Part shown: in pieces, positions 878-56,089 of the stretch
Numbering within the stretch: position 1 is the stretch's first letter
How the letters are laid out: every line of letters begins with the position of its first letter
Source: a virus
Strand: one strand, 5' to 3'
DNA length: 64,000 nt
Virus record (IMG/VR): IMGVR_UViG_3300030616_000016
Coordinates: 70,561 to 134,560 of that record
Made by a program: the position numbers and the translations under genes
Notes under the pieces: generated by a model
The model's input: the letters and a program-made list of their open reading frames with translations, nothing else
Databases searched by the model: none
Told to the model about the DNA's origin: nothing

Positions 878-2026
878 TTAGAACGAGTCAGCGCTTTCCT
901 TTTCTCTAACTGCTCTTTTTATTTGACTACTTAGTCTTGCGTGTGATTGCTTTTCTTTTGCTATGTCTTCTAATATTTCTATATCTTTACTGCTTAACAA
1001 CTTTCTTACTCTGATAATATCAAGGTGAGCAGCATATGATAGAGTTGCAAACAATGTTTCCAACTCCTTTTTATCACATTCATAATTCATGACTTTATGG
1101 ATCCACCCTTTATATTGCTTATATTTTTTGGATCCTATTCCACTAATTCTTCTTGCCATTGTTCTACGACTTATGTCAACTCCAAATACAACACCCAATG
1201 CACTTATTCTATTTATACCGCTTAACATAACTTTTGACTTATGTTTATTAAATCTCATTCCTTCTACTGCTACGGCCTTATTTGCGCACTTGAAAATATC
1301 ATTTATCCATTCTTTCCAGAATCTTTTAGATATGTAAGGCATAGAGCTACTTAGTTGTATGTCGTCAGCATATCTTGAATATCTGATCCTTCCATATGGC
1401 CAACCCATGCTTGACATTGTTATATCAAACTTTCTCATACATAGATTTGATATTACAGGACTTGATGGAGCACCTTGTGGTAATCCATTTGTCATTGAAA
1501 CAAGAGGTATTAATGGTATCTTATATTTTCTGCAGCATGTATCTACAGTATGTAATGATATAAGCATCTTTCTAATATGTTTTGCTTTAATAGATGGAAA
1601 GAAGTTCTTAATATCCATACTAATCATTATTCTAGCTCCATCATGTATCGACTGTAATTTGTTAATTGCAGTTTGGAAGCGTCTAGAACGTCTTAGTATT
1701 CTTCTAAAAGATTCTTGTGTTGTAAACAGCGGTTTTGGACTATATGCTAAGCTATGTCCATTTCTGTCATACTTTTGCAATAGCCATGAGACATATCTTT
1801 GTGCCGTTTTTAAGTCTTCGTCTGGCTCATGTAAATGCCTGATGCCACCTGATCTTTTTCTTATCATGTGGTGTGTATATCTTGAGTCTCTATCGTTTGA
1901 GTTTTGTTGTAAGTCTTCAAACAATTGCTGAATTGTAATACCAGATGGCAAGACTAGACTTAGAAAATTGTCAGGAGTTATATCATGAAGTCTCAGTTTC
2001 TTCTTTATCTGATTCTGTTCCATCAT
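878..2026 (-). CDS. reverse transcriptase (free-standing retron / group-II-intron-like RT, 382 aa)
   Basis: RT motifs: IRKRSGGIRHLHEP (1), ISMDIKNFFPSI (2), GLPQGAPSSPVISNL (4), YSRYADDIQL (5, YADD), NKHKSKV (7); the C-terminal KGWIHKVMNY resembles a thumb/X region. QGxxxSP is not the DGR-type IGxxxSQ. Its start overlaps the recA-like stop by 44 nt. Confidence 0.8.
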   Translation of the reverse strand: MMEQNQIKKKLRLHDITPDNFLSLVLPSGITIQQLFEDLQQNSNDRDSRYTHHMIRKRSGGIRHLHEPDEDLKTAQRYVSWLLQKYDRNGHSLAYSPKPLFTTQESFRRILRRSRRFQTAINKLQSIHDGARIMISMDIKNFFPSIKAKHIRKMLISLHTVDTCCRKYKIPLIPLVSMTNGLPQGAPSSPVISNLCMRKFDITMSSMGWPYGRIRYSRYADDIQLSSSMPYISKRFWKEWINDIFKCANKAVAVEGMRFNKHKSKVMLSGINRISALGVVFGVDISRRTMARRISGIGSKKYKQYKGWIHKVMNYECDKKELETLFATLSYAAHLDIIRVRKLLSSKDIEILEDIAKEKQSHARLSSQIKRAVREKESADSF

Positions 2027-3107
2027 CTCCGCCTTCCGATTCCGTATTGTCAGATATTAATTTGGTTATATCATTGTTTGCTGCAAATTCATATAGTGCT
2101 ATTATTCCTTGCACGCTTTCTTCGCCTATGTAGTAGTATCCACCACGCTTGGTGATTTTACCATCTACAATCATTTGATCTACTAAAAATCTTTCTTCAC
2201 TAAACCCATGATTAAAGATGAATGGATATTTTACTTCGGCTCCCTCCGGCATAGTACCAGACTGTCTAGTCTTATTGATTTTCATGTAATGCATGAAGCC
2301 AATAATTTTCTCTTTCTTCTTTCCATCTTCTTCTACAATGGCAGCTGGAGCTTCGCTTTTGCTACCTCTACGAGTCATCAGCCTTACGTGTGTAAAATGC
2401 TTAACCGCATTTCCTCCCTTAACGAGAGTTAGGTCACCATATCCACCAATATTGGTGTATATTTGACCAATCATTATGATTGTTGTGTTTGTCTTTGCTG
2501 CAGGACCACAAGCAAGTCTTAGGAACTGGCTCATTTTTCTTTGAAGAACACCGATGGTATCATCGTTTAGGCTACGGTTAGTACCGGTTTTACTTTCGAG
2601 TTCTGCGCGTGGAAGCAGACCGCCAATTGAATCAATAACTACGATGTCTACTAAATTCTCTCTCATAATGTCGAGACATTTATCTAGCATGTTCTCCATC
2701 GTATCTTTCTCAATTATAAAGAGCTCATCTGTATTGACTCCTTGTACTTTTAACCACTCTTTATCCAATGCTTCTTCTGCATCAACCCAGCATGCAATAC
2801 CATGGTTTTTCTGAACTTCTGCTACACATCTTGCACATGCAGTGCCTTTAGCTGTCTGTTCTGGTCCGGCGATTGTAACAATTTTACCTCTAGGAAAACC
2901 TCCGCCTAAATAGTCATCCCAGCCTTTAATGCCGGTTGATATTCTACCGTAATCCTCTAGTCCAAAATGTACAATTTGATTTTCATCATCGATGTCTTTG
3001 TTAATAGAAGTCGCTACTCTTTTTAGACGAGCCATCTTCTCTGCTTTTATATCTTGTGGAGATACAATCTTTTCTTCACTAGTATCTTTGCTTTTTCTCT
3101 TAGCCAT
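1983..3107 (-). CDS. recA: RecA-family recombinase (374 aa) with acidic C-terminal tail
   Basis: Aligns to the bacterial RecA core: GKIVTIAGPEQTAKGT (P-loop region), VDIVVIDSIGGLLPRAELE, IIMIGQI, GGNAVKHFTHVRLMTRRGS. GGAAG lies upstream of the ATG. Confidence 0.85.
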   Translation of the reverse strand: MAKRKSKDTSEEKIVSPQDIKAEKMARLKRVATSINKDIDDENQIVHFGLEDYGRISTGIKGWDDYLGGGFPRGKIVTIAGPEQTAKGTACARCVAEVQKNHGIACWVDAEEALDKEWLKVQGVNTDELFIIEKDTMENMLDKCLDIMRENLVDIVVIDSIGGLLPRAELESKTGTNRSLNDDTIGVLQRKMSQFLRLACGPAAKTNTTIIMIGQIYTNIGGYGDLTLVKGGNAVKHFTHVRLMTRRGSKSEAPAAIVEEDGKKKEKIIGFMHYMKINKTRQSGTMPEGAEVKYPFIFNHGFSEERFLVDQMIVDGKITKRGGYYYIGEESVQGIIALYEFAANNDITKLISDNTESEGGDDGTESDKEETETS

Positions 3108-8492: not shown

Positions 8493-9485
8493 CTAGACTT
8501 TGTTGAAGTCTTTAATTACATGACTATGACATCTAGGACATTCCAGATTATTTTCATCATTAATTACAAACACATTATTACATGCAGGACATGTTATTCC
8601 TTCCTCTTCATCTGCATCTATAATAAGAGGATCAGTAATATGGTTATCAATTGGATCATCGATAGGATCGCCATATCCAGCCCAATTACGAATGTTTTGA
8701 GAAGTTCTGTGATGTCTGTTACCAAACCTAGGATTGTAATAGCTACCACCTATTGGAAACATAGTTGATTTTCCTTCAACTACTTCATCTTTGTCTTCAT
8801 CATATGAATGTGTAGTCATAGATTTTACAAGCTCATTTATCTCTTCTCTACATTTCTTATATGTTTCTGTGTAATCTGCAGTTACAACATTGAGATCAAT
8901 ATTGTCAATGACAAGCTTGGGGTTTTTCTGAACATATTTGACTAAGATGTTACCAGATTTATTTCCTACAAGCATTACTGCCCATCCATGTTGCTGAAGC
9001 ATCTCATCTGCAGCATCTACATCCTGTCCACTCCAGAATGTAGGCATGTTTACATGAGAATGCCAATGGAAATTCATGCGGCTGTATATTGATTTGCCAA
9101 TGTCTTGTTTAATAGTCAGCATATCTTCTTCTGATATATCATCAACAGATATATCTTTAAACTCCTCAGAGTCTTCAATATATTTGTTGATGTAGTTATC
9201 GATAATATCATGCTCTCCCTTAATGAGAGGAAGCTCAATTCTCTTACATCTGTCTTTATTACACAAACGAAAGTAGCCTGAGCTTGCTACTTGTTTAACG
9301 ATGAATACATTATCAATGATAAGATTACCATTCTTGTCTTGGATGATGGTACCAAGTCCACCACATTCGGTTGAACAAGCATTGATCCATCCTCTGATCT
9401 TTTCTCTTAGGATTGCTGGCATGTATATATTGATGCTTTCTTTAGTTTCTAAAGCATCTTTCTCGGATTCGTTCTTGATTTGCAT
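8493..9485 (-). CDS. JAMM/MPN+ (JAB) metalloprotease domain fused to a C-terminal zinc ribbon (330 aa); candidate Ubl-processing / deconjugating enzyme
   Basis: HWHSHVNMPTFWSGQD exactly matches the JAMM motif H-x-H-x7-S-x2-D, with an upstream Glu (STECGG). The C-terminus carries CPACN...CPRCH. Confidence 0.75.
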   Translation of the reverse strand: MQIKNESEKDALETKESINIYMPAILREKIRGWINACSTECGGLGTIIQDKNGNLIIDNVFIVKQVASSGYFRLCNKDRCKRIELPLIKGEHDIIDNYINKYIEDSEEFKDISVDDISEEDMLTIKQDIGKSIYSRMNFHWHSHVNMPTFWSGQDVDAADEMLQQHGWAVMLVGNKSGNILVKYVQKNPKLVIDNIDLNVVTADYTETYKKCREEINELVKSMTTHSYDEDKDEVVEGKSTMFPIGGSYYNPRFGNRHHRTSQNIRNWAGYGDPIDDPIDNHITDPLIIDADEEEGITCPACNNVFVINDENNLECPRCHSHVIKDFNKV

Positions 9486-9511: not shown

Positions 9512-10549
9512 TTATGATGCTGATGTATCTACGCGTCCATCAGGCAATAGTTTCAAGTCTTCTTTTTTTGCATATGCTTTCCAGTGGTCAATATCTGCAT
9601 ATGTATCGCCAGAATTACAACTTTCAAGATATTCTTTCAGAATGGCAAATATTACTCCATAACTACCACATTTAAGATACTGAGGAATGGCTCTGCTAAT
9701 ATTCCCCAAGCATGGACCACCATCAACATTAACATGAGGATGTGGATTTGAAGTTTCTTTACCTGGAGGTTCAATAACTGATGTAATGCGTATTCCTGTA
9801 CTATTATATGGAATACTAACAAGATATGTTCCCATATAATAGTACATGTCATTTTCTTTTATCCAGATAGGTGGTGTAAGCCCCTTAATTGAGTCTGGAG
9901 CGAACTCAATGTTAGCATATGCACCTGATTCATATAATTTCATTACTCCAGTAACTGCTTTGTCAATCATCATTTCTTTCTCTTCACCTTCAGGTATGTT
10001 TTCTATATCTTTTAACCTTTCCTTGGCTATTTCAAGGCGTTTCATAAGAGTAAGTTGATGTGTTTGACAAGCTTTCATTTGGTTTTCTGTGAGCCTCAAA
10101 GATGTGAGAAGACTAGTTTTCTCACTATCTACATTACCAAGAAGCTGACGATAAATACATTCCCGTACATCGTTTCTCTTGTTTGCAATGTCTCGTTGAG
10201 ATCTACGACTAGAGCCACTACCTCTTCTAGAAAGAATTATTCGCGCGTCTCTAAAACTTTTAAATGCGTTTGAGATTACTGCGTCAAATATATCTTCTCT
10301 AGAAGCAAGTATTTGTAAACAGTTTGGTGAATGGGTAATAGTTTTTCTTGACTCGTCAACAAAAGGTTCCCATACATTAGATATGTTAGGAATATCTTCA
10401 ATTGGTGTAGGATTTATAATGCAAAGAACCTCTGAAGTAAAATCCTGGAATCTATCACTAATGATAATGGTTTTTGTCAGAGAGATCTCAAATGTTCTGA
10501 AAACAGCAAATAAATCTGAGCTGTTTGCAACTCCCATATTATCAATCAT
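9512..10549 (-). CDS. protein with C-terminal UBC/E2-like domain (345 aa); the N-terminal ~230 aa are of unknown function
   Basis: IRITSVIEPPGKETSNPHPHVNVDGGPCLGNI parallels the E2 active-site HPN(I/V)xxxGxICL signature (HPH...PCL). Confidence 0.65.
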   Translation of the reverse strand: MIDNMGVANSSDLFAVFRTFEISLTKTIIISDRFQDFTSEVLCIINPTPIEDIPNISNVWEPFVDESRKTITHSPNCLQILASREDIFDAVISNAFKSFRDARIILSRRGSGSSRRSQRDIANKRNDVRECIYRQLLGNVDSEKTSLLTSLRLTENQMKACQTHQLTLMKRLEIAKERLKDIENIPEGEEKEMMIDKAVTGVMKLYESGAYANIEFAPDSIKGLTPPIWIKENDMYYYMGTYLVSIPYNSTGIRITSVIEPPGKETSNPHPHVNVDGGPCLGNISRAIPQYLKCGSYGVIFAILKEYLESCNSGDTYADIDHWKAYAKKEDLKLLPDGRVDTSAS

Positions 10550-10684
10550 ATTTGAAAGCCTTTCTGTGTTTTATGATTAGGGTAAAGAAAAGTCAAGTAC
10601 TATAGTAAGTGTTTACTATAATACTTGACTTTTTTGTGGCCACATAACTACACAAAAGTGTAGCTACATTTTTAGGGCACTTTA

Positions 10685-10900
10685 CTACTTGCCGCCATCA
10701 ACCTTCTGCTGCAGAACGACGATGTCGCCGTTATCCAGGACTGTGTCGAGGTCAGCAGCGTCGCCGTTTACACGGACTTTACGACTGCCCAGCTCAACTC
10801 CAGCTGTTGCAAGAAGGTTCGCGACGGTTGCGTTTGCCGGAGTGAGGCTGTAAGTCTTAACTTCGCCTTCACCCTGAGCCAGCTGTACACATGTAACCAT
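10685..10900 (-). CDS. ThiS/MoaD-type beta-grasp ubiquitin-like protein ending in Gly-Gly-Lys (71 aa)
   Basis: GEGEVKTYSLTPANATVANLLATAGVELGSRKVRVNGDAADLDTVLDNGDIVVLQQKVDGGK fits the ThiS/MoaD pattern (ATV..LL, VAVNG, L.DGD.V.I...V.GG). ATG at 10900 is preceded by AAGGAG. Local GC is about 55% against about 33% for the surroundings. Confidence 0.75.
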   Translation of the reverse strand: MVTCVQLAQGEGEVKTYSLTPANATVANLLATAGVELGSRKVRVNGDAADLDTVLDNGDIVVLQQKVDGGK

Positions 10901-10939
10901 TGCAGAACTCCTTAAATAGGGTTCATGTTTTGTCAACGT

Positions 10940-11614
10940 TCAACTACAAGGCCACACTAGCCTGTAGTCCGCTGACCCTTTTAGAAACATTAATTCATCC
11001 ATAGATAAATTATGTTCATTTGCAACTATAAATCCTATGTTTCCGTAGTCATCGAATCTCATAAGAGATATAAAGTTTTCTATTCCGAACCTATTTTTTG
11101 ATTCGTTTCCACAATAAACGCAATTTGGAAATCCGTATAGCATTTTAGAACCACATAGACCACACTCTTCTTTAGACTCCAGTTTGTAAACTCTTAGTTC
11201 TTTTAGTATTCTTTCATTAATCATAAACGATTGTTGCCCAAGTTTTACCTCTGTACGTTCATGCAAATCTACAAGAGCATCAAATGGAATTCGATTGATC
11301 CAGTAATTTAATGGTCTTAAGCTAGCTGTTCTATTTCTATATATAAGTAAGTTAACTAGTATTTTGTCTGCACATATGGGAGAGCCTTCTTTAAAAATAT
11401 ATCCCATAATTTTATTAGTTCCAATAACATTTCTAGAGCTTCCAATTTCTGGCACTGCTAATGTTAAGCGATTTGGGCTTAGGACTATATCCCATTTCTT
11501 TGATAAATCTTGAGGCTCGTCTGGGTTGTGAGGAGTTATATGCGCCAGCTTTTCTTCTATAGCTCCACGAAATATTGAGCTTTTTCTTCGCTCTAGACAT
11601 TGCGACATATACAA
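10940..11614 (-). CDS. hypothetical protein with CxxCG-x9-CxYCG zinc ribbon; the start may be the internal Met at about 11407 because the ORF overlaps the helicase 3' end
   Basis: ECGLCGSKMLYGFPNCVYCG; the ORF overlaps the uvrD-like C-terminus by 180 nt in another frame. Confidence 0.4.
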   Translation of the reverse strand: MYMSQCLERRKSSIFRGAIEEKLAHITPHNPDEPQDLSKKWDIVLSPNRLTLAVPEIGSSRNVIGTNKIMGYIFKEGSPICADKILVNLLIYRNRTASLRPLNYWINRIPFDALVDLHERTEVKLGQQSFMINERILKELRVYKLESKEECGLCGSKMLYGFPNCVYCGNESKNRFGIENFISLMRFDDYGNIGFIVANEHNLSMDELMFLKGSADYRLVWPCS

Positions 11615-14107: not shown

Positions 14108-14575
14108 TTATTTAGATGTCTCGTATATTGCTTTGATGTCTATGTTTGATGAGTCTTCCAATAGTAATTTTACTAGTCCTATTTTATTCTTGCTGTTAAA
14201 TGAAGACATGATTGCTTTAAGTATATTATCATTGTATGCGCCACAAAATTGGCATATAATCGAGCTTCCCAGACACATACAATTTGAACATCTTTCTGTA
14301 AGTTTAGATGTAATACTTATATAATCGCGTGATATTGTTACTGGCAAGCAACCACAACTATCTATTGCCAAAATATCATAAGTATCGTTGTCTATGTATC
14401 CAACTATTATTTTTTTTGCACGCATAAATTCTTTATATATAAGGAGATTATAAGCATTATGTTCTACTTCAAATGGTATTAATATACTATCACTGTCTTG
14501 TAAGGGTTTTGTAGACCCTTCAGAAAGTGTAAGCCCAGTGAATAATATACGATCAAAACGACACGATTTACTCAT
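14108..14575 (-). CDS. hypothetical Cys-cluster protein (155 aa), translationally coupled to the E1-like gene
   Basis: Start overlaps the E1 stop (ATGA). Contains CSNCMCLGSSIICQFCG. Confidence 0.45.
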   Translation of the reverse strand: MSKSCRFDRILFTGLTLSEGSTKPLQDSDSILIPFEVEHNAYNLLIYKEFMRAKKIIVGYIDNDTYDILAIDSCGCLPVTISRDYISITSKLTERCSNCMCLGSSIICQFCGAYNDNILKAIMSSFNSKNKIGLVKLLLEDSSNIDIKAIYETSK

Positions 14576-15309
14576 GGTCTTTTATCCTTAAAGATATCCC
14601 ATGTCTTGAAATTAATATCTATTCCAAATGGAATTGTTTCTTCTGTTCCATTTGCAATATGATAAATACATGAGGATATCCAGCTTGCTGTCCACATTAC
14701 TGGAAATATAATGCTCTTTTCTGTACACTTGATATCAGGCATGTCTTCATCATTATCAAGATTGTTTTCCTCGAACAGCTGAACTTCATCTGGCATGTAA
14801 GGAAGTACTGCGTATGCTTCGCATTGAGTTGCTCCAATTCTTGAGTCTATAAACATGGAAATACGAGCCATATTTTGACAACTATATTCAAACAGGAGTT
14901 GTCTTGCCTTCATGTTATCGACGGCAGAAATAATAATGTCAGCTTTTCTAGCGTATTTGTCAACATCGTCTACGCTTTCAAGTCTGTCTTTATGAAATTC
15001 CCACTCCCAGTTGGGCTTTGAATATCCGCTTATAATCTTTTCAAGTTCAGCTACTTTTAGGGCTCCAGTTTGCCGCCAATTATAAATTTGGTTTGCCTGA
15101 TTATGGACTTCAATTGAATCAAAGTCTACAATAGTACATTTGGTGATACCCATTTTTGCCATAGCAACTGCAGCAAATGAACCTATGCTTCCAGCTCCAA
15201 GCATAAATACATTAAGCTTCATCAGCTTATCAATGTCAACTAGATCAAAGTGACCTTTATAAATTTCTTCATTCTCATTGAATACAAATTCTTCTTCCTG
15301 GTTAGACAT
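14572..15309 (-). CDS. ThiF/MoeB-family E1-like adenylyltransferase (about 246 aa)
   Basis: VFMLGAGSIGSFAAVAMAKMGITKCTIVDFDSIEVHNQANQ is the classic E1/ThiF Rossmann GxGxxG...D.D.VE.SNL.RQ motif; DNMKARQLLFEYSCQN also present. ATG at 15309 is preceded by AAAGGAA. Confidence 0.8.
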   Translation of the reverse strand: MSNQEEEFVFNENEEIYKGHFDLVDIDKLMKLNVFMLGAGSIGSFAAVAMAKMGITKCTIVDFDSIEVHNQANQIYNWRQTGALKVAELEKIISGYSKPNWEWEFHKDRLESVDDVDKYARKADIIISAVDNMKARQLLFEYSCQNMARISMFIDSRIGATQCEAYAVLPYMPDEVQLFEENNLDNDEDMPDIKCTEKSIIFPVMWTASWISSCIYHIANGTEETIPFGIDINFKTWDIFKDKRP

Positions 15310-15967: not shown

Positions 15968-16385
15968 TTTGCGTAAATCCACTAGGGGTTTTGAGTCTAA
16001 TGCGCTCTTTGTCAATACTGACAATCTCTGAGCCTGGTACAAAGAGCTGGGCTAGGCTCATTTCAGTATACTTTGTTGAAGTTTTGGTAAGCTCTTCTTC
16101 TGACCAACCAAACTCCTTAGCCTTTGATACAGCTTCAACAAACTCACTGTCATTATATACATCAGGATTGTATTCTATATCACCGACATCAACTACCTGA
16201 CATATGATATTCTTAATCCTTGACTTGATGAATTTTGCATCGTCGTTCATATGAATATCTTCTAGTTTACTACACATGACAAGCAAGTCACCGCATAGAT
16301 TCCATGCGGGACTTGCTTGCAGTGTTTCTAGATTTGATTCTGACAGTGGAAGTATTTGCGTGATCTTTTCAGCTATAGCTTCCAT
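15939..16385 (-). CDS. hypothetical protein (148 aa)
   Basis: minus-strand ORF. Confidence 0.45.
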   Translation of the reverse strand: MEAIAEKITQILPLSESNLETLQASPAWNLCGDLLVMCSKLEDIHMNDDAKFIKSRIKNIICQVVDVGDIEYNPDVYNDSEFVEAVSKAKEFGWSEEELTKTSTKYTEMSLAQLFVPGSEIVSIDKERIRLKTPSGFTQNVWRYSKYK

Positions 16386-21872: not shown

Positions 21873-23167
21873 TACCCCACGCCTAAAGGCGGGGGCTTCC
21901 TAATTCATCGAAAATTGCGTTCCATACTGGCTACGTCTTACATCTTCTCCAAAGGCTTTAGGTTCCCCTTGCCCAGGGGTACAAAATGCAAAATTCAAAA
22001 TATTACTAGATGCAAGGGCATCTCTATCGTGTTTGGCACCACAAGTGCAAGTCCAATATCTGTCACTTAGCTTAAGATTATTATTTATAGCGCCGCACTG
22101 GTTACACATCTTGCTGGATGGTTCAAATCTTCCTATAGTCAAAACATGCTTTCCATACCAACCTGCCTTATACTCAAGAAAGGTACGAAAAGTATACCAT
22201 CCAACATCAGAGATAGCCTTGGCCAAACAATGATTCTTCACCATTCCAGAAACGTTTAAATCCTCAAGACACACTGCTTGGTTCTCGTCAATGAGCCTTT
22301 TGGACAATTTATGCAAAAAATCTTTACGTTGATTAGAAATCTTCTCATGTATCAACGCTACCTTCCTACGAGCCTTGTTTCTATTTGAAGAACCTTTCTT
22401 CTTCTTTGATAATTGTTTTTGCTTTCTTGCCAATCTTCTTTCAAGTTTCTTTAGGTATCTTGGATTATCTATTTTCTCGCCTGTTGATAGTGTTGCAAAA
22501 TGTTTTAATCCAACGTCAACACCTACACTATTATCTCGTTCAGGATTACATTTGATAGGTAATTCTTCTCCATTGTCAACCAAAATAGAAGCAAAGTATT
22601 TCCCAGAAGGAGCCATGAATATAGTTACAGTTTTAATATTGCCTTCAAATTGTCTATGGAATTTGCATTTGATGCCATCACGGAATTTCATTACATATAG
22701 CCTATTATTATCAAAATCCACATTACTTCCTTGTGGAAATTGACAAGATTGCTTTTTGAATTTCTTCTTAAATTGAGGATATCTTGCCTGTTTCTTAAAA
22801 AACCGCCGGAAAGCATTGTCAAGGTTTCTAAAGGCCATTTGCAAAGATTGACTATTAACTTCCTTCAGCCAACCATGCTCAGATTTCATATGTTTCAATT
22901 GCTTTATCAAATCAAAACAGGAAGGAGATTTCCCCGTTTTTTGATAAGACTCTGTTTTCTTTTGGAGTCCCAAATTGTATATGAACCGTACACAACCAAA
23001 ATGCTTCACAAGAAGCTCCTGTTGTTTTTTGTTGGGGTATATTTTGTATTTATATGCTCGTATCATTATATTTATAGTATAGCACAGGTTTCTGTAAATG
23101 TCAAGAGAAAAACGCATTCTTATATCCCCATGGCTAAAGCCAGGGGTCTTACGAATGCACCTTGATA
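21866..23167 (-). mobile_element. IS200/IS605-family tnpB-only (IS1341-like) element with subterminal imperfect hairpins
   Basis: Left end begins TTATCAAGGTGCATTCGTAAGACCCCTGGCTTTAGCCATGGGG; right end finishes CCCCCGCCTTTAGGCGTGGGGTAATGTCAC. Both ends recur at 33634-33883 and 62731-62781. Confidence 0.7.
21900..23066 (-). CDS. tnpB: TnpB (OrfB) RuvC-like RNA-guided nuclease / IS605 accessory protein
   Basis: MIRAYKYKIYPNKKQQELL...FGCVRFIYN N-terminus; C-terminal CNQCG...CTCG zinc finger; RuvC-like regions. Confidence 0.85.
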   Translation of the reverse strand: MIRAYKYKIYPNKKQQELLVKHFGCVRFIYNLGLQKKTESYQKTGKSPSCFDLIKQLKHMKSEHGWLKEVNSQSLQMAFRNLDNAFRRFFKKQARYPQFKKKFKKQSCQFPQGSNVDFDNNRLYVMKFRDGIKCKFHRQFEGNIKTVTIFMAPSGKYFASILVDNGEELPIKCNPERDNSVGVDVGLKHFATLSTGEKIDNPRYLKKLERRLARKQKQLSKKKKGSSNRNKARRKVALIHEKISNQRKDFLHKLSKRLIDENQAVCLEDLNVSGMVKNHCLAKAISDVGWYTFRTFLEYKAGWYGKHVLTIGRFEPSSKMCNQCGAINNNLKLSDRYWTCTCGAKHDRDALASSNILNFAFCTPGQGEPKAFGEDVRRSQYGTQFSMN

Positions 23168-23339
23168 AAAGAGCAGGAGGAAGGTATCCTCTTCCCCCTG
23201 CCAGGTTTCATTATCAAAAGCTCCAGCTGCTTTCAATTATCAGTTGAACGCTGGAATTCAATGAAATGTTGCATTTATGTTGTCTACGGCGCTATAGCCA
23301 ATTTTTAGATCTAAGTACCTGCGACCTGCCATTAGTCCA

Positions 23340-23390
23340 AGGACACATAAGGAATAAAATGGAGTGTCCTGAGGGACTTGAACCCTCAAC
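23340..23390 (-). other. tRNA 3'-half-like module: canonical T-arm (GAGGG-TTCAAGT-CCCTC) followed by AGGACAC-T-CCA, then a 7-nt complement (GTGTCCT) forming a second hairpin
   Basis: Seen in sequence on the minus strand; no D or anticodon arm could be folded. Confidence 0.3.
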
Positions 23391-23499
23391 TCAGGCATAG
23401 TTAATATTGGCGTTCGAGAAGACAACGCAACAAATGCTGAGCTTTCAGGGAATAGTCTGAATTTAGCGTGCTTTCATATTATCACCAGCTTTCGCCGCG

Positions 23500-23560
23500 T
23501 ATGCCAGTTCCGCCATCTTCCCATATAGTGGGAAGAGCAGGGTTCGAACCTGCACGGTGA
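23500..23560 (-). other. Second tRNA 3'-half-like module: T-arm (GCAGG-TTCGAAC-CCTGC) followed by TCTTCCC-A, then the complement GGGAAGA forming a hairpin
   Basis: Seen in sequence; same architecture as 23340-23390. Confidence 0.3.
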
Positions 23561-23608
23561 AGGAAAGTACTTATTTCAGCTTAACCTTAAGCTTCAGCTT
23601 GCCCTGTA

Positions 23609-24346
23609 TTATCCGAAAATGAAGTTACAGATGTCCTTGCCGATTTCTTTGCGTTCAACAGACGTGTTGTTTGCTTCTTCTCGTGCAAACTTGACTGCTC
23701 TCATAAGAACAGCAATTTTGTCAAGCATTTCTTTCTTACGAGTTGCAGAAATACATGTACTGAGCTTTGTAGTAGTCCAGTAACCGATAATCTCATCGCT
23801 GACTACAAGCTGAGTCTGTGCAGGATGCTTTTCAGTAGCAGCATAAAGAACGATAGGTTTCTCAACCTTACGTGTTTTATGTGTCTGACGCGCGCCTGAT
23901 TTGAACATTCCGGAATCTTCATCACGAGCCCATGTTTCTGCTGGATCCAGTTCAGGAAGTTTCTCGACATATGTTTTAATATCGTTCAGCTGTTTTTCGA
24001 GGTACAGCAAGAATGTGGGAGGGGCGTCTTTTACAATTACTGTGTCGCCAACCTTAATATCTGCTTTTGCAATGGTATTGCCAAAGTCTTTAGTTGCAGT
24101 AACATCAAACAGATCTGCGAGAGATTCCGCTACTTCGTTAATTACATTGTTCAGATTTTCTTGTACCTTTACTGATTCTTCTGGAAAGTTCTCACCTTCT
24201 TCGTCTTTAGGCTCATATACTTTATGAAGGCCATTGAATATTTGTGGTGCATCTGACAAACGATGAGCCTGAGTAATGATAGAATTATGGCGGGATTTTT
24301 CGCCCTTCTCAACTGCAATAATCTGATTAAGTTTAACTTCAGACAT
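23609..24346 (-). CDS. hypothetical protein (245 aa), locally higher GC
   Basis: minus-strand ORF. Confidence 0.5.
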   Translation of the reverse strand: MSEVKLNQIIAVEKGEKSRHNSIITQAHRLSDAPQIFNGLHKVYEPKDEEGENFPEESVKVQENLNNVINEVAESLADLFDVTATKDFGNTIAKADIKVGDTVIVKDAPPTFLLYLEKQLNDIKTYVEKLPELDPAETWARDEDSGMFKSGARQTHKTRKVEKPIVLYAATEKHPAQTQLVVSDEIIGYWTTTKLSTCISATRKKEMLDKIAVLMRAVKFAREEANNTSVERKEIGKDICNFIFG

Positions 24347-33887: not shown

Positions 33888-35558
33888 TTAGTTTATAAGG
33901 CAAAACAGATACTTCTGAATTCTGTCACTGCCTGTTGCATATTCGTCTATCAGGCGATATAAGAGCTTGTCCCAGCCTTTAGATAGCATCAACTGCATTA
34001 CAGTGATGTATATCCTTGTTCCAGACCTCTTACCACTATTTGCATATATTCCATCATCAGATAGCTTACGACTGCATGCATGAGTATTTGTCTGGTGGCT
34101 GAACTTATCTAATACTATCCAGAACACTTTCCCAGACCATGCCTCAACTGTCTGTCCGTTATAAGTATGCTTTTGTGGCTTGCATTCTTTTATAAGAGCA
34201 GATGGTATATTCCCATCTTCTCCTTCTAGAAAGTGAGGAACGGGCGCCGGCCCTGATTCCTCTGCAATATTATTAAGCATAGCTTCTACTATCTGACCTG
34301 GATTCCTACGCTTTAGAGTTGCAAGAGCGTTGGTTACCACTTCTGCTGGTTTGCCATCTATCTTAGGCATTTGCTCGTCTGGTATAATATTTACTATACC
34401 TTTATTACCGTGACGATTTGTAATTTTGTCGCCACTTCTGAGAATATGAAATCTCTCGTATTCGACAATAAGTTTTGTACAAACTGTGTTTGCTACTTTT
34501 GTTCTTATCTCACTGATATTAGACAGTTTAGCTTCACGCTTGACATGACATTTAAGCGTGATTGTTTCTTCTCCATCAGAATAAGAACCAATTATCTGAT
34601 TTGGTCTTACAATGTCTCCGGCTTTGGCTTCCATCTTTAGGCTTTGTTTGCACCATCCTGGTACTACGAATGTCTGTTTCTCAGGAATGACACATGTCAT
34701 TTTTCTAGCTGCTGACTTACTCATAACAATCTGTTCTTTGTATACACCAGGCATGATTGCATGAACTGTAAGTAAGTGCTTGCCATTAAGATTGTTATCA
34801 TAATCTTCTGGAAACACCATAGGTTTATCTGGACTAACTAGCTTGCTGGAAGCCTTGAAATTAGATGCAGTGGTTCTGCGGCGATTATATTCTGGTACAA
34901 TAAGATTCTTATTGAGTATATCGCAATAAACCCGACCTCTTTTGGTGAAGCATCCAATATCGTTTATTTTGCATTCTTCAGCCATGTACATTGTGCGACC
35001 ACAATTCCCCGATGACTGACTTATACTTGTCCAATCAAGAATGCCTTCTGTATTGAATGGCATAAATTCATCCGTTCGTTCTTGAAATAGCTCTAATGAT
35101 ATTTTGGGTCCATAGTGAGTAGCTATTCCCTTTACGACATGAGATAATCTTGAAGTTTTAAGTAAATTATCGAGCTTCATTTGAGCTGTGGTAGAATCTT
35201 CTTGATGTCCGAACATAAAGAAGTCTGACAGTTGTGTAGCATATGCTTGCTTAATGAATTTAAGAAGAAGCTCGTATGGTGTTGATAAATATGTGTGATT
35301 AATATTCATACATCTGTTATTAAAGATTGGCATTGGATTAAGTGTATAGCATAATTGCCGGCTTATTCCATTTACAGAAAACATACCCTTGTTATCAATC
35401 TTAGGTATATTTAGTTTTACGACTGTTTGCATGCTCTGGGATGCCTCTTTAACAAGCATTTTTGTATGAAATAGGTCATCATATTCTTCTATATGACAGT
35501 CAACAGGCAAACAATTACATATAGGAAACAATCTTGCAAGATGAGACTTATTCATCAT
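33888..35558 (-). CDS. multisubunit RNA polymerase beta-subunit-like protein (C-terminal module of beta)
   Basis: GDKITNRHGNKGIVNIIPDEQMPKIDGKPAEVVTNALA aligns with RpoB GDKMAGRHGNKGVVS...; the GKVFWIVLDKFSHQTNTHACSRK region matches the RpoB C-terminal conserved block. Confidence 0.8.
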   Translation of the reverse strand: MMNKSHLARLFPICNCLPVDCHIEEYDDLFHTKMLVKEASQSMQTVVKLNIPKIDNKGMFSVNGISRQLCYTLNPMPIFNNRCMNINHTYLSTPYELLLKFIKQAYATQLSDFFMFGHQEDSTTAQMKLDNLLKTSRLSHVVKGIATHYGPKISLELFQERTDEFMPFNTEGILDWTSISQSSGNCGRTMYMAEECKINDIGCFTKRGRVYCDILNKNLIVPEYNRRRTTASNFKASSKLVSPDKPMVFPEDYDNNLNGKHLLTVHAIMPGVYKEQIVMSKSAARKMTCVIPEKQTFVVPGWCKQSLKMEAKAGDIVRPNQIIGSYSDGEETITLKCHVKREAKLSNISEIRTKVANTVCTKLIVEYERFHILRSGDKITNRHGNKGIVNIIPDEQMPKIDGKPAEVVTNALATLKRRNPGQIVEAMLNNIAEESGPAPVPHFLEGEDGNIPSALIKECKPQKHTYNGQTVEAWSGKVFWIVLDKFSHQTNTHACSRKLSDDGIYANSGKRSGTRIYITVMQLMLSKGWDKLLYRLIDEYATGSDRIQKYLFCLIN

Positions 35559-37417: not shown

Positions 37418-37525
37418 TTGGCAACTCCTTACGTCTTTTTTGAGGTAGGAAGGGAATAAAAAGAGCTGGAATACTTACCAATAAAGGTAAATATTCCAGC
37501 TCAATCCATGTTTGGAGACATTGGA

Positions 37526-43009: not shown

Positions 43010-44020
43010 TTACCAAGGCCAGTTAGGGACCTCGATCTTATGAACATGTTTCAAGTGATCGAATGCATAAGGCTGGAAAGGCGCTTCGACGCCATAATGA
43101 GCACGATAAGCAACTTCCCACCAGTGAGACAGGAATATCTTAGTAGCCCATCTCTTACTTCTCATATGAATCTGACTATTGGGGAGCTTGCCTTCGCGAT
43201 ATATTGCCCTCTGTTTATGACCAGGCACTCTTCGAAGAACTTCTCGTGCAATATGCGCATATTCCTTGGCTTCATTCTTACGCGACTCGATAATCTTCCT
43301 TTCAACAACAAGATGTCCATAGAGATCTTTTGGATTGTTGCATGTCATATTGAAAGACTCACCGATTTTCCAGCAGAGTGTTTTCAGTTCTGAATTCCAG
43401 GGACGCATTGACAGACCTCTGTAAAGCGTCTTGCCTGTATGAACTCCGCCTCCTTTCTGTAATGAGAGACGAAGTGCGGTAGCTGCTTTGATTCCTCCGG
43501 CTTCTTGTATCGCATTTGCTACCTTAATAGCATCTTCTTCAGATACTCTTCTTGTACTATCAGGATTAATACCGGCTTCGTCAACCATGATTTCTCTTGT
43601 AACTTTCTTGCCAAGCCAGCGCTTTCCGTCTACAAGACCAGCATAGCTATAGATATGTCCTGGAGTCTTAGCTTTGTCCATATCTATATGGGCAATAAGA
43701 CCGGCGCTGATAACAGGGCCAATACCTACAACTGATTGAGCCCATGTACCAATTTTTGTTGATAATGAGAAATGATTGAGCGCGAGCTTCACCTGATTCT
43801 CAAGACGCTCCGCATTCTTAAGAAACCAATCAAGCACTTCCATTGGAGGGTCGTCTACGCCCTGCTCTGCTGCTCTAAGCTGACCAGCAAGCCTGATTCT
43901 CTGGTTCTGCATGGTATAATAACTATCTACCAGATAGCGGGCTTCCTGACGCGTAATCTTTCTTGACGCGTTTCTTATGTCTTTACCTACTCTTTCAATA
44001 ATTTCTTCAATAGCCATCAC
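43010..44020 (-). CDS. hypothetical Trp-rich protein (336 aa) with a Transposase_20-like helix-hairpin-helix motif; locally GC-rich
   Basis: VVGIGPVISAGLIAHIDMDKAKTPGHIYSYAGLV resembles the IS110-family C-terminal HhH (PGIG..tA..L.A...D..RF.s...L.sYAGL). No DEDD N-terminal domain was recognised. Confidence 0.45.
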   Translation of the reverse strand: MMAIEEIIERVGKDIRNASRKITRQEARYLVDSYYTMQNQRIRLAGQLRAAEQGVDDPPMEVLDWFLKNAERLENQVKLALNHFSLSTKIGTWAQSVVGIGPVISAGLIAHIDMDKAKTPGHIYSYAGLVDGKRWLGKKVTREIMVDEAGINPDSTRRVSEEDAIKVANAIQEAGGIKAATALRLSLQKGGGVHTGKTLYRGLSMRPWNSELKTLCWKIGESFNMTCNNPKDLYGHLVVERKIIESRKNEAKEYAHIAREVLRRVPGHKQRAIYREGKLPNSQIHMRSKRWATKIFLSHWWEVAYRAHYGVEAPFQPYAFDHLKHVHKIEVPNWPW

Positions 44021-55866: not shown

Positions 55867-56038
55867 TTCTCCTCCTTAGATGACAGTGCGCAATATATGC
55901 CATATCTGCTATTACTCCTGCAAATAGTGAATTTGAGAAGTCGGCGCCAAGTGCCTTCATAAGAGAAAACATGATAAGTCCAATAACTGTTGCTATAAGA
56001 ATTTCCTTACTAGCATTATATGTTTCTTTAGAGCTCAT
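55859..56038 (-). CDS. small membrane protein (59 aa, MSSKETYNASKEILIATVIGLIMFSLMKALGADF...); not in the ORF track
   Basis: Manual translation; GGAG upstream; its stop overlaps the next gene's start (ATGAGTGA). Confidence 0.35.
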   Translation of the reverse strand: MSSKETYNASKEILIATVIGLIMFSLMKALGADFSNSLFAGVIADMAYIAHCHLRRRNE

Positions 56039-56089
56039 TATTATATCTCCTATTATTTGCTATGCATTTCTTGTCAAAAGTTGCCAAAA

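What the first reader, a model, noticed from the sequence alone, without database searches (positions are those of the whole stretch)
10660..10990. The Ubl gene is a GC-rich (about 55%) island with a perfect AAGGAG RBS in a 33%-GC genome
Base composition over about 330 bp around the ThiS/MoaD-like gene is sharply different from both flanking genes (E2-like and Zn-ribbon ORF), which are typically AT-rich. That points to recent acquisition of only the Ubl gene from a higher-GC donor, or to strong selection on its mRNA. Either way the cassette looks modular: the Ubl may have been swapped independently of the E2 and JAB genes.
Basis: seen in the sequence. Interest (0 to 1): 0.55.

Follow-up and report, generated by a model that had tools for sequence, protein, structure and literature searches.

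The report
GC-rich ubiquitin-like gene kept by selection
A tiny ubiquitin-like gene in an AT-rich giant phage really is a sharp GC-rich spike, but eight related phages show the same spike at the same place, so it reflects long-term selection on this gene, most likely for very high expression, and not a recently imported piece of DNA.

Summary
The 71-aa Ubl CDS (window 10685-10900, minus strand) is 55% GC in a 36% GC window, the highest peak in 64 kb, about 4.5 SD above the mean. The recent-import reading fails. Orthologues in seven other related phage lineages sit at the same position (UvrD, Zn-ribbon ORF, Ubl, E2-like, JAB) where the contigs are long enough to show it. All are 11-22 GC points above backgrounds of 30-52% GC. 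The Ubl tree matches the flanking genes, whose synonymous sites are saturated. No donor-like relative turned up in any collection searched. The spike coincides with the CDS only; both intergenic flanks are AT-rich. About 45% of the excess comes from a Gly/Ala/Val/Asp-rich protein and about 55% from synonymous codon choice. The codon shift is specific: A-ending codons are lost and C-ending codons gained, with no AGA/AGG, TTA/CTA, AAT or CAA. That is a major-codon pattern, not a high-GC-donor pattern. The gene lies in a conserved cassette of bulged 5' hairpin, ACCC box, AAGGAG, CDS and terminator. Best reading: mutation-selection balance on a highly expressed modifier that conjugation consumes. 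Expression itself is inferred, not measured. This is an ordinary mechanism in an interesting phage-encoded E1/E2/JAB/Ubl setting.

The parts
10685..10900 (-). Ubl gene (71 aa, beta-grasp, ends GG+K). This is the GC-rich island itself: 55% GC, GC3 0.55.
   Evidence: Searches give the sequence, ORF and composition. The AF2 model has pLDDT 85 with a beta-grasp topology. Foldseek top hits are Caldiarchaeum ubiquitin, SUMO2, NEDD8 and ISG15, TM 0.65-0.74. Pfam ThiS scores 19.3 bits, below the 22.5 cut-off; orthologue P0012 passes at 25.4.
10908..10913 (-). Shine-Dalgarno AAGGAG, 7 nt before the ATG. It is conserved in all eight lineages but is common in this phage.
10917..10923 (-). AACCCTA, the window copy of a short conserved A(A/C)CC(C/T) box lying 3-14 nt upstream of the SD in all eight lineages. 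It can pair weakly with the SD. Function unknown.
   Evidence: Upstream sequences; folds.
10932..10976 (-). Bipartite stem-loop: a 7-bp outer stem, a 3-nt GAA bulge on the 3' side, and a 12-bp inner stem. It straddles the stop codon of the upstream Zn-ribbon ORF. The same shape with different sequence occurs in the related lineages. I infer it is an RNA processing or stabilising element, or a punctuation signal.
   Evidence: Folds. The structure-anchored comparison shows several pair types per position. It ranks 10th among 6,394 60-nt windows for stability.
10642..10669 (-). First hairpin after the Ubl stop codon (12-bp stem).
10588..10633 (-). 21-bp stem-loop flanked by an A-run and a U-run. 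It looks like an intrinsic terminator between Ubl and the E2-like gene. Every lineage has a non-homologous strong hairpin plus U-tract at this spot.
   Evidence: It is the 5th strongest 60-nt structure in the window.
10940..11407 (-). Upstream 155-aa ORF with a CxxC...CxxC zinc ribbon. It is AT-rich (33%) and present upstream of the Ubl in relatives.
9512..10549 (-). E2-like protein (345 aa). It has a conserved YPHPHV-x4-GxPCLGN motif resembling the HPN...Cys motif of UBC enzymes. It has no Pfam, PHROG or PADLOC hit.
   Evidence: The AF2 model is poor (pLDDT 52) and its fold search is uninformative.
8493..9485 (-). JAB/MPN+ peptidase-like protein (330 aa) with an HSHVNMPTFWSGQD (HxHx7Sx2D) motif and a C-terminal zinc ribbon.
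   Evidence: The motif is read from the translation. Pfam Prok-JAB scores 18.5 bits, below its cut-off. PADLOC JAB gives E 6e-4.
14572..15309 (-). E1-like ThiF adenylation protein (245 aa), 3.7 kb upstream of the Ubl.
   Evidence: Pfam ThiF 77 bits; PADLOC E1-E2 models; gene call.

Best explanation
The GC spike is an old, selection-maintained property of the Ubl coding sequence in this clade of jumbo-phage-like genomes. It has two additive causes.

1. The protein is unusually rich in Gly, Ala, Val, Asp, Glu and Leu (GC1 about 0.71). That alone predicts 44.5% GC, higher than any other gene in the window.
2. Synonymous codon choice is shifted away from A-ending codons and the phage-typical AGA, TTA, CTA, AAT and CAA. 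It moves toward C-ending codons and CGT, CTG, CTT, GGC and GGT. This adds the remaining 11 points or so.

The same offset is kept on backgrounds of 30%, 36% and 45-52% GC, which is what mutation-selection balance predicts.

The most likely selective agent is efficient, high-level translation. The Ubl is the substrate consumed in a JAB, E1 and E2 conjugation pathway, whereas the enzymes are catalytic, so far more Ubl is needed. In line with this, the gene sits in its own conserved cassette: a bulged 5' hairpin, an ACCC box, a consensus SD, the CDS, and a strong terminator before the E2 gene.

Shown here: the composition, its decomposition, conservation across lineages, co-divergence with flanks, the flanking hairpins, the beta-grasp fold and the C-terminal GG with a variable tail. 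Inferred: high expression, translational selection as the agent, and the biochemical roles of E1, E2 and JAB.
For: - **Conservation across lineages.** Ubl GC versus background: W 0.55/0.36, L001 0.52/0.30, L005 0.63/0.48, L007 and L009 0.62-0.63/0.49-0.51, L008 0.605/0.486, L028 0.63/0.52, L029 0.615/0.50, L031 0.57/0.45. The Ubl is the top GC peak in each of the four contigs of 14-64 kb.
- **Decomposition.** In W the observed GC is 0.554. The GC expected from the protein under background codon usage is 0.445; other genes average 0.361 with a maximum of 0.417. GC3 is 0.55 against 0.28 expected, and 0 of 20,000 simulations reach the observed GC. L001 gives GC3 0.46 against 0.20, and L005 0.70 against 0.52 with P=1e-4.
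- **Saturated flanks.** In E2-like, JAB, UvrD, ThiF and RecA the identical-codon fraction at conserved residues equals the chance expectation (for example 0.50 versus 0.48, and 0.44 versus 0.45). The Ubl exceeds chance: 31 of 48 against an expected fraction of 0.43 for W versus L001.
- **Specific codon shift.** In W, A3 falls from 0.36 to 0.17 and C3 rises from 0.16 to 0.34; G3 goes from 0.14 to 0.20 and T3 from 0.35 to 0.29. The pattern is the same in five lineages. Pooled counts: AAC 14 / AAT 0, TAC 5 / TAT 0, CAG 15 / CAA 0, AGA+AGG 0 of 23 Arg, TTA and CTA 0, ATA 0. GCC, GCG, GTG, GGG and CGG are not favoured in the AT-rich lineages.
- **Co-divergence.** The identity matrices of Ubl, E2-like, JAB and UvrD share one topology.
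- **Island equals CDS.** Both intergenic flanks are AT-rich.
- **Conserved cassette.** The hairpins and terminator recur in all lineages, and three of the ten most stable 60-nt structures in 64 kb lie at this locus.
- **Ubl identity.** Beta-grasp model and Foldseek hits. An invariant GG is followed by non-conserved tails K, KIS, TAGALAA, NV, A, TA and TV. This matches the pre-processing logic reported for Type II BilA (10.1101/2023.09.26.559546).
Against: - No expression data exist; high expression is inferred only from sequence.
- The host and its tRNA pool are unknown. The IS110 scan gave only 23-51% identity hits across many phyla, so codon adaptation could not be scored against a real reference set.
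- No known highly expressed phage gene, such as the major capsid gene, lies in the window for comparison.
- G-ending CAG and AAG are also preferred. That fits a general GC or stability pressure as well as translational selection does.
- The conserved ACCC box can pair with the SD, which would dampen rather than maximise translation.
- The gene has only 71 codons, so per-family codon counts are small.
Confidence: 0.65

Rival explanations
1. Horizontal acquisition of the Ubl gene alone from a higher-GC donor. This could be recent, or repeated, so that the GC content is a leftover donor signature and the cassette is modular.
For: The composition is sharply atypical and the boundaries are sharp. 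The two other GC peaks in the window are genuine mobile-element genes: an IS110-type transposase at 43010-44020 and a TnpB-like fragment at 55971-56312.
Against: - GC-enriched orthologues occur in seven further lineages, at the same position wherever the contig shows the neighbours.
- The Ubl co-diverges with E2, JAB and UvrD.
- Flanking synonymous sites are saturated, so a neutral foreign GC3 would have decayed.
- The Ubl's GC3 tracks each genome's background with a roughly constant offset rather than one donor value.
- The boundaries are the start and stop codons, not a DNA segment with its own flanks, and there are no meaningful flanking repeats.
- The codon shift is A to C with T kept, not a symmetric G+C gain.
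- No relative was found in GTDB genomes, plasmids, isolate phages or IMG/VR. In 5.8 billion proteins, only members of this same family were found, on uncultured metagenome-derived contigs, the longer of which are syntenic with the window.
Confidence: 0.04
2. Selection for GC content as such at the RNA level. A GC-rich, compact, hairpin-capped mRNA would resist AU-directed endonucleases such as RNase E or phage and host RNases. It would also avoid AT-rich internal promoter or terminator signals of the phage RNA polymerase. The result would be long mRNA life rather than faster decoding.
For: - The whole Ubl transcript region folds far better than shuffles (z = -7.5).
- The CDS sits between two of the ten strongest local structures in the window.
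- In W the native CDS folds better than synonymous permutations (z = -2.4, 2% of permutations).
- G-ending CAG and AAG are preferred.
- Synonymous sites are slightly more conserved than chance.
- The window encodes a phage RNA-polymerase beta-like subunit, so phage-specific transcription signals are plausible.
Against: - The folding excess over synonymous permutations is not reproduced in L001 (z = -1.0) or L005 (z = -0.6).
- T-ending codons are retained while A-ending ones are purged, and G3 hardly rises in most lineages. That is not what selection for G+C or for pairing predicts.
- No Rfam family matches.

This rival is compatible with the best explanation. Both give high Ubl output.
Confidence: 0.2
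3. A pure by-product of amino-acid composition. The conserved beta-grasp sequence happens to need Gly, Ala, Val and Asp codons, and no selection acts on synonymous sites.
For: GC1 is 0.67-0.74 in all lineages. The protein alone predicts 44.5% GC in W, the highest of 74 genes.
Against: It explains only about 8.4 of the 19 excess points. GC3 is 0.55 against 0.28 expected, with 0 of 20,000 simulations reaching the observed GC. Similar excesses occur in L001 and L005.
Confidence: 0.05
4. The GC-rich segment hides another element: an antisense or overlapping gene, a structured non-coding RNA, or a DGR-type repeat.
For: The codon-aligned antisense frame has no stop codon across the CDS in all five lineages tested. 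A reverse transcriptase gene lies in the window at 878-2026.
Against: - The open antisense frame follows directly from the absence of TTA, CTA and TCA codons.
- In the window that frame has no start codon giving an ORF of at least 40 aa, and the other antisense frames contain stops of varying position.
- There is no Rfam match.
- There is no second copy or template-like repeat of the segment in the window.
- The sense product gives a confident beta-grasp model.
Confidence: 0.03

Closest known systems
Codon-usage and GC3 deviation of highly expressed genes under translational selection.
   Same: C-ending two-fold codons are preferred: F/Y/I/N are 6 of 6 C-ending in W against 31% in the background, P=9e-4. 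CGT is used rather than AGA. TTA, CTA and ATA are avoided. Pyrimidine-ending codons are kept in four-fold boxes. Cheap small amino acids are enriched. The offset holds across genomes of different GC.
   Different: Expression level and host tRNA pool are unknown here, and the gene is only 71 codons long. The size of the effect is unusually large for a phage gene: about +0.25 in GC3, the strongest in 64 kb.
Compositionally atypical horizontally acquired islands
   Same: A sharp local departure from genomic GC.
   Different: The gene is present at the same place in all related lineages and co-diverges with its neighbours. Its boundaries are the start and stop codons. There are no mobility genes or junction repeats, and no donor was found.
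BilA-type ubiquitin-like proteins of bacterial BilABCD (Type I and II) anti-phage systems (10.1101/2023.09.04.556158; 10.1101/2023.09.26.559546)
   Same: A single beta-grasp Ubl encoded near an E1 (ThiF), an E2-like protein and a JAB peptidase. A conserved C-terminal Gly is followed by up to seven non-conserved residues, as in Type II BilA, where up to nine residues are removed by the DUB. Remote relatives include Ubls with 2-4 tandem beta-grasp domains, as reported for Type II BilA.
   Different: The system is encoded by a jumbo-phage-like genome, not a bacterial defence island. The genes are not one operon: E1 lies 3.7 kb away behind a UvrD helicase and small ORFs, and a terminator separates Ubl from E2. 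The E2-like protein has a His-Pro-His motif before the Cys, like classical UBC HPN. It lacks the His after the Cys described for bacterial 6D/Bil E2s. It has no Pfam or PADLOC match.
ThiS/MoaD/SAMP sulfur-carrier and modifier beta-grasp proteins
   Same: The fold and the C-terminal GG. The best PDB sequence matches are SAMP2 and PF1061 at E about 0.1, and there is a weak Pfam ThiS hit.
   Different: There is no sulfur-metabolism context. The GG is followed by a tail that must be removed, and the partners are E2-like and JAB proteins.

Membership tests
Recently acquired genomic island (horizontal transfer) | Composition atypical for the genome | tested here: met
   55% against 36% GC, the top peak in 64 kb.
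Recently acquired genomic island (horizontal transfer) | Patchy distribution: absent, or compositionally normal, in close relatives at the same junction | tested here: not met
   Seven further lineages carry a GC-enriched orthologue. Synteny is conserved in L001, L005 and L008.
Recently acquired genomic island (horizontal transfer) | Phylogeny of the island discordant with flanking genes | tested here: not met
   The identity matrices of Ubl, E2-like, JAB and UvrD group the lineages the same way. This rests on four taxa only.
Recently acquired genomic island (horizontal transfer) | An identifiable donor-like homologue or mobility signatures at the junctions | tested here: not met
   No relatives in GTDB genomes, PLSDB, INPHARED or IMG/VR. 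There are no junction repeats beyond chance, and the boundaries are the start and stop codons.
Gene under translational (major-codon) selection | Synonymous codon usage significantly different from the genome, beyond what amino-acid composition explains | tested here: met
   GC3 is 0.55 against 0.28 expected, with 0 of 20,000 simulations reaching the observed GC. The result is replicated in L001 and L005.
Gene under translational (major-codon) selection | Preference for C-ending Phe/Tyr/Ile/Asn codons and avoidance of rare AGA, AGG, ATA and CTA codons | tested here: met
   Pooled counts: AAC 14/0, TAC 5/0, ATC 7 / ATT 2 / ATA 0, AGR 0 of 23.
Gene under translational (major-codon) selection | Preferred codons match the host's abundant tRNAs and its highly expressed genes | not testable with these tools
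   The host is unknown and the IS110-based host search was uninformative. There are no tRNA genes in the window.
Gene under translational (major-codon) selection | High measured expression | not testable with these tools
   No transcriptome or proteome data are available. The only indirect signals are the consensus SD and the dedicated terminator.
Ubiquitin-like beta-grasp modifier (ThiS/MoaD/Ub superfamily) | Beta-grasp fold | tested here: met
   AF2 pLDDT 85 with a beta-beta-alpha-beta-beta-beta order. Foldseek hits ubiquitin, SUMO, NEDD8 and ISG15 at E 1e-4 and TM about 0.7.
Ubiquitin-like beta-grasp modifier (ThiS/MoaD/Ub superfamily) | C-terminal Gly-Gly available for adenylation | tested here: met
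   GG at residues 69-70 is invariant in eight orthologues and is followed by 1-7 non-conserved residues.
Ubiquitin-like beta-grasp modifier (ThiS/MoaD/Ub superfamily) | Pfam ThiS (PF02597) score above the gathering threshold | tested here: not met
   The window protein scores 19.3 bits against a 22.5 cut-off. Orthologue P0012 passes at 25.4 bits.
BilABCD ubiquitination-like system | E1 with a ThiF adenylation domain | tested here: met
   PF00899, 77 bits.
BilABCD ubiquitination-like system | E2 of the Bil type, with a catalytic Cys and a conserved His C-terminal to it | tested here: inconclusive
   An invariant Cys280 lies in HPHV-x4-GxPCLGN, so the His is N-terminal to the Cys as in UBC. There is no Pfam or PADLOC hit, and the structure model is too poor to judge.
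BilABCD ubiquitination-like system | JAB/MPN+ deubiquitinase | tested here: inconclusive
   The HxHx7Sx2D motif is present in the translation, but Prok-JAB scores 18.5 against a cut-off of 25. PADLOC JAB gives E 6e-4.
BilABCD ubiquitination-like system | Four genes in one compact operon in a bacterial genome or defence island | tested here: not met
   The genes are spread over about 6.8 kb with a UvrD helicase and small ORFs between them, and a terminator follows the Ubl. The source contig is 231.6 kb with a phage RNAP-beta-like gene.
BilABCD ubiquitination-like system | Ubl conjugation to target lysines | not testable with these tools
   This needs biochemistry.

The most novel reading that the evidence does not exclude
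A clade of uncultured jumbo phages encodes its own complete ubiquitin-like conjugation pathway: a ThiF E1, an E2 with a UBC-like HPH...Cys motif, a JAB protease and a GG-ending Ubl. The phages mass-produce the modifier from a dedicated, evolutionarily conserved mini-cistron. That cistron consists of a bulged 5' hairpin (possibly an RNase III-type processing or stabilising site), an ACCC box, a consensus SD, a codon-optimised GC-rich CDS and a strong terminator that uncouples Ubl output from the enzymes. On this reading the GC spike is a sequence-level reporter that a virus uses ubiquitin-like tagging in bulk, on host or virion proteins.
Probability: 0.3. Interest if true: 0.6.

Novelty: new member of a known kind. 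Interest (0 to 1): 0.3.

Why it matters
For genome scanning, this is a clean example of why a compositional spike should not be read as horizontal transfer without comparative data. Here the spike is the coding sequence itself, and it persists across lineages whose neutral sites are saturated.

For biology, it marks the Ubl as the most strongly codon-biased gene in 64 kb of a jumbo-phage-like genome. It shows that the gene has its own conserved expression signals, separated from the E2 and JAB genes by a terminator. That predicts a large excess of modifier over enzymes and gives a concrete, testable handle on a phage-encoded ubiquitin-like system that has no close relatives in isolate-phage, IMG/VR, plasmid or species-representative prokaryote genome collections.

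Tried and rejected
- **Close relatives in curated collections.** Megablast of 7 kb, and tblastn of the Ubl, against INPHARED found nothing. IMG/VR scans with the E2-like protein, the Ubl and the Ubl alignment found nothing. blastn of the island against PLSDB found nothing. A scan of 185,579 GTDB genomes with the Ubl profile found nothing.
- **Host inference.** The IS110-type transposase at 43010-44020 gave only 23-51% identity hits scattered over Gemmatimonadota, Acidobacteriota, Halomonas, archaea and others. That says nothing useful about the host.
- **A specific conserved mRNA fold inside the CDS.** Native against synonymous-permuted MFE gave z = -2.4 in W but only -1.0 in L001 and -0.6 in L005. 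This is not consistent. RNAalifold on the MAFFT alignment of the upstream regions failed because the sequences are misaligned, so I compared the hairpins anchored on structure instead.
- **Known RNA families.** Rfam found no match at gathering thresholds over the whole window. Only sub-threshold noise appeared on the terminator hairpins.
- **Antisense or overlapping gene.** Rejected.
- **DGR template or second copy.** None in the window.
- **Flanking direct repeats.** Only a 9-nt chance-level match.
- **A sigma-70 promoter for the Ubl.** No convincing hit, and the total count equals the shuffled expectation.
- **The GAA-bulged hairpin as a window-wide punctuation signal.** A pattern scan gave 10 hits against 6.3 +/- 2.2 in shuffles, and only the Ubl copy has long stems. 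There is no evidence for a repeated element.
- **Structure of the E2-like protein.** pLDDT is 52 from a 3-sequence alignment, and the Foldseek hits are not significant. The top hits are Knl1 RWD domains at E 0.1.
- **AAGGAG as a special feature.** Rejected, because 18 ORF starts in the window share it.
- **L010/P0010 (95-aa variant).** It has no GG and lies in a different context, so it looks chimeric or degenerate. I left it out.
Full report
**1. The observation**

The Ubl gene lies on the minus strand at 10685-10900. It has an ATG start, encodes 71 aa (MVTCVQLAQGEGEV...QQKVDGGK*), and has AAGGAG at 10908-10913, 7 nt upstream. The CDS is 55.1% GC (GC1 0.71, GC2 0.39, GC3 0.55).

The window as a whole is 36.1% GC, not 33%. 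The 83 minus-strand ORFs of at least 70 aa average GC 0.359, GC1 0.44, GC2 0.34 and GC3 0.30. In a 219-nt sliding window the Ubl is the global maximum of the 64 kb: 0.557 against a mean of 0.361 and SD 0.044. The runners-up reach at most 0.51. They map to an IS110-type transposase and a TnpB-like fragment.

The spike coincides with the coding sequence:

| Segment | GC |
|---|---|
| Ubl CDS | 55.1% |
| Upstream intergenic (39 nt) | 38.5% |
| Downstream intergenic (135 nt) | 31% |
| E2-like gene | 35.6% |
| Zn-ribbon ORF | 33.3% |

The "perfect RBS" is real but ordinary for this genome, because 18 ORF starts share it.

**2. What the gene is**

Pfam gives only a sub-threshold ThiS hit (19.3 bits against a 22.5 cut-off). 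An AlphaFold model built from two sequences has pLDDT 85 and a beta-beta-alpha-beta-beta-beta order. Foldseek places it with Caldiarchaeum ubiquitin, SUMO2, NEDD8 and ISG15 at E about 1e-4 and TM 0.65-0.74. The best PDB sequence matches are SAMP2 and PF1061, aligned up to the terminal GG.

The neighbours are:
- a ThiF E1 at 14572-15309 (77 bits);
- a 345-aa protein at 9512-10549 with an invariant YPHPHV-x4-GxPCLGN motif, reminiscent of the UBC HPN...Cys signature, but with no family hit;
- a JAB-like protein at 8493-9485 carrying HxHx7Sx2D.

The source is a 231.6-kb metagenomic contig. The window encodes a phage RNA-polymerase beta-like ORF, RecA, UvrD, a DEAD helicase, UDG and a reverse transcriptase, and nearly all genes are on one strand. 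This is a jumbo-phage-like genome.

**3. Relatives and the transfer hypothesis**

Nothing similar exists in INPHARED, IMG/VR, PLSDB or 185,579 GTDB genomes. The 5.8-billion-protein collection and the JGI metagenomes yielded seven further lineages, all on uncultured contigs.

Three contigs are long enough to show synteny: L001 (41 kb), L005 (14 kb) and L008 (29 kb). L001 and L008 share the order ThiF, small ORFs, UvrD, (Zn-ribbon ORF), Ubl, E2-like, JAB, and RecA further on; L005 shows the same order from UvrD onward, and no ThiF is called in its first 3 kb.

In every lineage the Ubl gene is GC-enriched over its own background:

| Lineage | Ubl GC | Background GC |
|---|---|---|
| L001 | 0.52 | 0.30 |
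| W (this window) | 0.55 | 0.36 |
| L005 / L006 | 0.63 | 0.48 |
| L007 / L009 | 0.62-0.63 | 0.49-0.51 |
| L008 | 0.605 | 0.486 |
| L028 | 0.63 | 0.52 |
| L029 / L030 | 0.615 | 0.50 |
| L031 | 0.57 | 0.45 |

The Ubl is the top GC peak in each of the four long sequences. Pairwise identities give the same grouping, (W, L001) and (L005, L008), for Ubl, E2-like, JAB and UvrD. The Ubl has therefore co-diverged with its neighbours.

In the flanking genes, the fraction of identical codons at conserved residues equals the chance expectation from codon usage. E2-like gives 0.50 against 0.48, RecA 0.44 against 0.45, and JAB 0.50 against 0.49. Synonymous sites are saturated, so a neutral foreign GC3 could not have survived. 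Yet the Ubl keeps a GC3 excess of +0.27, +0.26 and +0.18 over expectation on three very different backgrounds.

This rules out recent import and independent swapping. It points to mutation-selection balance.

**4. Where the GC comes from**

I recoded the Ubl protein with each genome's background codon usage. This gives an expected GC of 0.445 in W, against a mean of 0.361 and a maximum of 0.417 for the other genes. Amino-acid composition therefore explains about 8 of the 19 excess points. The remaining 11 are synonymous, and 0 of 20,000 simulated recodings reach the observed GC.

The synonymous shift is not a symmetric gain of G+C:

| Third position in W | Background | Ubl |
|---|---|---|
| A3 | 0.36 | 0.17 |
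| C3 | 0.16 | 0.34 |
| G3 | 0.14 | 0.20 |
| T3 | 0.35 | 0.29 |

The same pattern holds in five lineages. In L001, T3 is unchanged (0.38 to 0.39) while A3 collapses from 0.43 to 0.15.

Pooled over five orthologues, the codon counts are AAC 14 / AAT 0, TAC 5 / TAT 0, ATC 7 / ATT 2 / ATA 0 and CAG 15 / CAA 0. Arg never uses AGA or AGG (0 of 23), although these make up 41-81% of background Arg codons. Leu never uses TTA or CTA. Gly is GGC or GGT in 38 of 43 cases.

In the AT-rich lineages GCC, GCG, GTG, GGG and CGG are not favoured. From established knowledge, this is the classical major-codon pattern of highly expressed bacterial genes: C-ending Phe, Tyr, Ile and Asn codons, CGT for Arg, and pyrimidine-ending four-fold codons. 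It is not what a high-GC donor would leave behind.

**5. RNA-level features**

A specific fold inside the CDS is not consistently supported. Native against synonymous-permuted MFE gives z = -2.4, -1.0 and -0.6 in W, L001 and L005.

The flanks, however, are conserved in architecture though not in sequence.
- **Downstream.** Directly after the stop codon, every lineage has one or two strong hairpins ending in a U-tract. In W these are 10642-10669 and a 21-bp stem at 10588-10633. The E2-like gene follows.
- **Upstream.** A bipartite stem-loop lies about 30-75 nt before the ATG and straddles the stop codon of the Zn-ribbon ORF. It has a 7-8-bp outer stem, a 3-nt GAA bulge on the 3' side (ACGA in L009 and GGA in L028; the stem-loop of L029/L030 departs from this design) and an inner stem of about 10 bp. 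Several pair types occur at each stem position across lineages.
- **Between hairpin and SD.** All lineages have a short A(A/C)CC(C/T) box.

Three of the ten most stable 60-nt structures on the gene strand of the 64-kb window lie at this locus. A pattern scan found no convincing further copies of the bulged hairpin in the window, and Rfam has no match.

I read this as a dedicated expression cassette that uncouples Ubl output from the enzymes. The hairpin's role, whether processing, 5' stabilisation or termination of the upstream unit, is inference.

**6. Mechanism proposed**

All orthologues end in an invariant GG followed by a non-conserved tail: K, KIS, TAGALAA, NV, A, TA or TV. Type II BilA proteins likewise carry up to nine non-conserved residues after the conserved Gly, and their DUB removes them (10.1101/2023.09.26.559546, read).

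The inferred pathway is JAB trimming, then E1 adenylation, then a thioester on E2 Cys280, then transfer to targets. In such a pathway the Ubl is consumed stoichiometrically while the enzymes turn over. That gives a simple reason for selection on high Ubl output: cheap small residues, major codons, a consensus SD and its own terminator.

I put about 0.85 on "selection-maintained, not transferred". I put about 0.6-0.65 on translation or high expression being the selective agent. Selection for mRNA stability or GC content as such is the main, and compatible, rival.

**7. Comparison with what is known, and novelty**

The phenomenon, codon and amino-acid bias producing a compositional outlier in a highly expressed gene, is a known kind. 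This is a new and unusually sharp instance.

The system resembles Bil-type bacterial ubiquitination-like operons but fails several membership features. It sits in a phage genome, the gene order is dispersed, a terminator lies inside the set, and the E2 has a UBC-like His-Pro-His motif before the Cys. It lacks the His after the Cys described for bacterial E2-likes.

Exhaustive HMMER found 264 remote relatives. Many carry 2-4 tandem beta-grasp repeats ending in KGN, and they hit Pfam ThiS. My literature searches of the open-access library found no description of a jumbo-phage-encoded E1/E2/JAB/Ubl set. That library is incomplete, so this is not proof of novelty.

**8. Verdict**

As a finding about base composition it has an ordinary explanation, so I score interest at 0.3. 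Its value is as a pointer to a probably highly expressed, hairpin-insulated Ubl cistron in a little-known phage-encoded ubiquitin-like system.

Noticed in passing
window 9512-10549 (-); L001 10411-11430; L005 5424-6518; L008 10313-11488: The E2-like protein has an invariant YPHPH(V/I)-x4-G-x-PCLGNISRA motif. The His-Pro-His lies about 10 residues before the Cys, like the HPN...Cys signature of canonical UBC E2s. This differs from the bacterial 6D/Bil E2-likes, which Iyer et al. 2006 describe as lacking that His. The protein has no Pfam, PHROG or PADLOC hit and a long helical N-terminal half.
   Followed up: partly
window 21900-23117 (-), 55971-56312 (+), 43010-44020 (-): Mobile-element genes lie inside the phage-like genome. 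There is a full-length TnpB-type transposase (phrog_506, E 1e-133), a TnpB C-terminal fragment on the opposite strand (Cas12f1-like TNB domain), and an IS110-family transposase. The fragment and the IS110 gene are the next-highest GC peaks (0.44-0.51), so they are the real candidates for imported DNA in this window.
   Followed up: partly
window 23501-23560 (-), within the GC-raised stretch 23313-23713: The sequence GGTTCGAACCCTGC resembles a tRNA T-arm and sits in a structured, GC-raised intergenic stretch just upstream of the TnpB gene. ARAGORN and Rfam report nothing here. It could be a tRNA remnant or a transposon-end element.
   Followed up: no
window 33888-35558 (-): This ORF matches the phage RNA polymerase beta subunit family (phrog_3295, E 2e-14). 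That suggests a jumbo phage with its own multisubunit RNA polymerase and therefore non-sigma-70 promoters.
   Followed up: no
window 10917-10923 (-) and the equivalent positions in L001, L005, L008, L009, L028, L029 and L031: A short A(A/C)CC(C/T) box lies 3-14 nt upstream of the AAGGAG in all eight lineages. It can pair with part of the SD. It might be a translational control element, a processing site or a transcription start signal.
   Followed up: partly
proteins P0013-P0160: Remote relatives of the Ubl are often polyproteins of 2-4 tandem beta-grasp repeats (about 70 aa each...KLPG...RVNG...DGD...KGN). Some are embedded in proteins of more than 1000 aa. They are reminiscent of polyubiquitin. 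Their genomic context could not be retrieved.
   Followed up: partly
L010 748-1035 (protein P0010): A 95-aa variant whose first 66 or so residues are Ubl-like. The GG is replaced by PGDCEESSEE... and the gene has neither the AAGGAG nor the usual flanks. It is either a degenerate copy or a chimeric assembly.
   Followed up: no
window 16271-16330 and 37461-37520 (-): These are the two most stable local RNA hairpins on the gene strand (-34.7 and -31.5 kcal/mol per 60 nt). They lie in intergenic positions and are probably strong terminators marking transcription-unit boundaries.
   Followed up: no
window 878-2026 (-) next to 1983-3107 (-): A reverse transcriptase (RVT_1) gene lies immediately downstream of RecA. 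The pairing is conserved in L001 and L008. No DGR-like repeat of the Ubl region was found, and the RT's role is unknown.
   Followed up: partly
window 8493-9485 (-), residues about 294-327: The JAB-like protein ends in a CPAC...CPRC zinc ribbon. The ORF upstream of the Ubl and the E2-like protein of L008 also carry Cys-rich zinc-ribbon-like segments, so zinc ribbons recur throughout this gene set.
   Followed up: no
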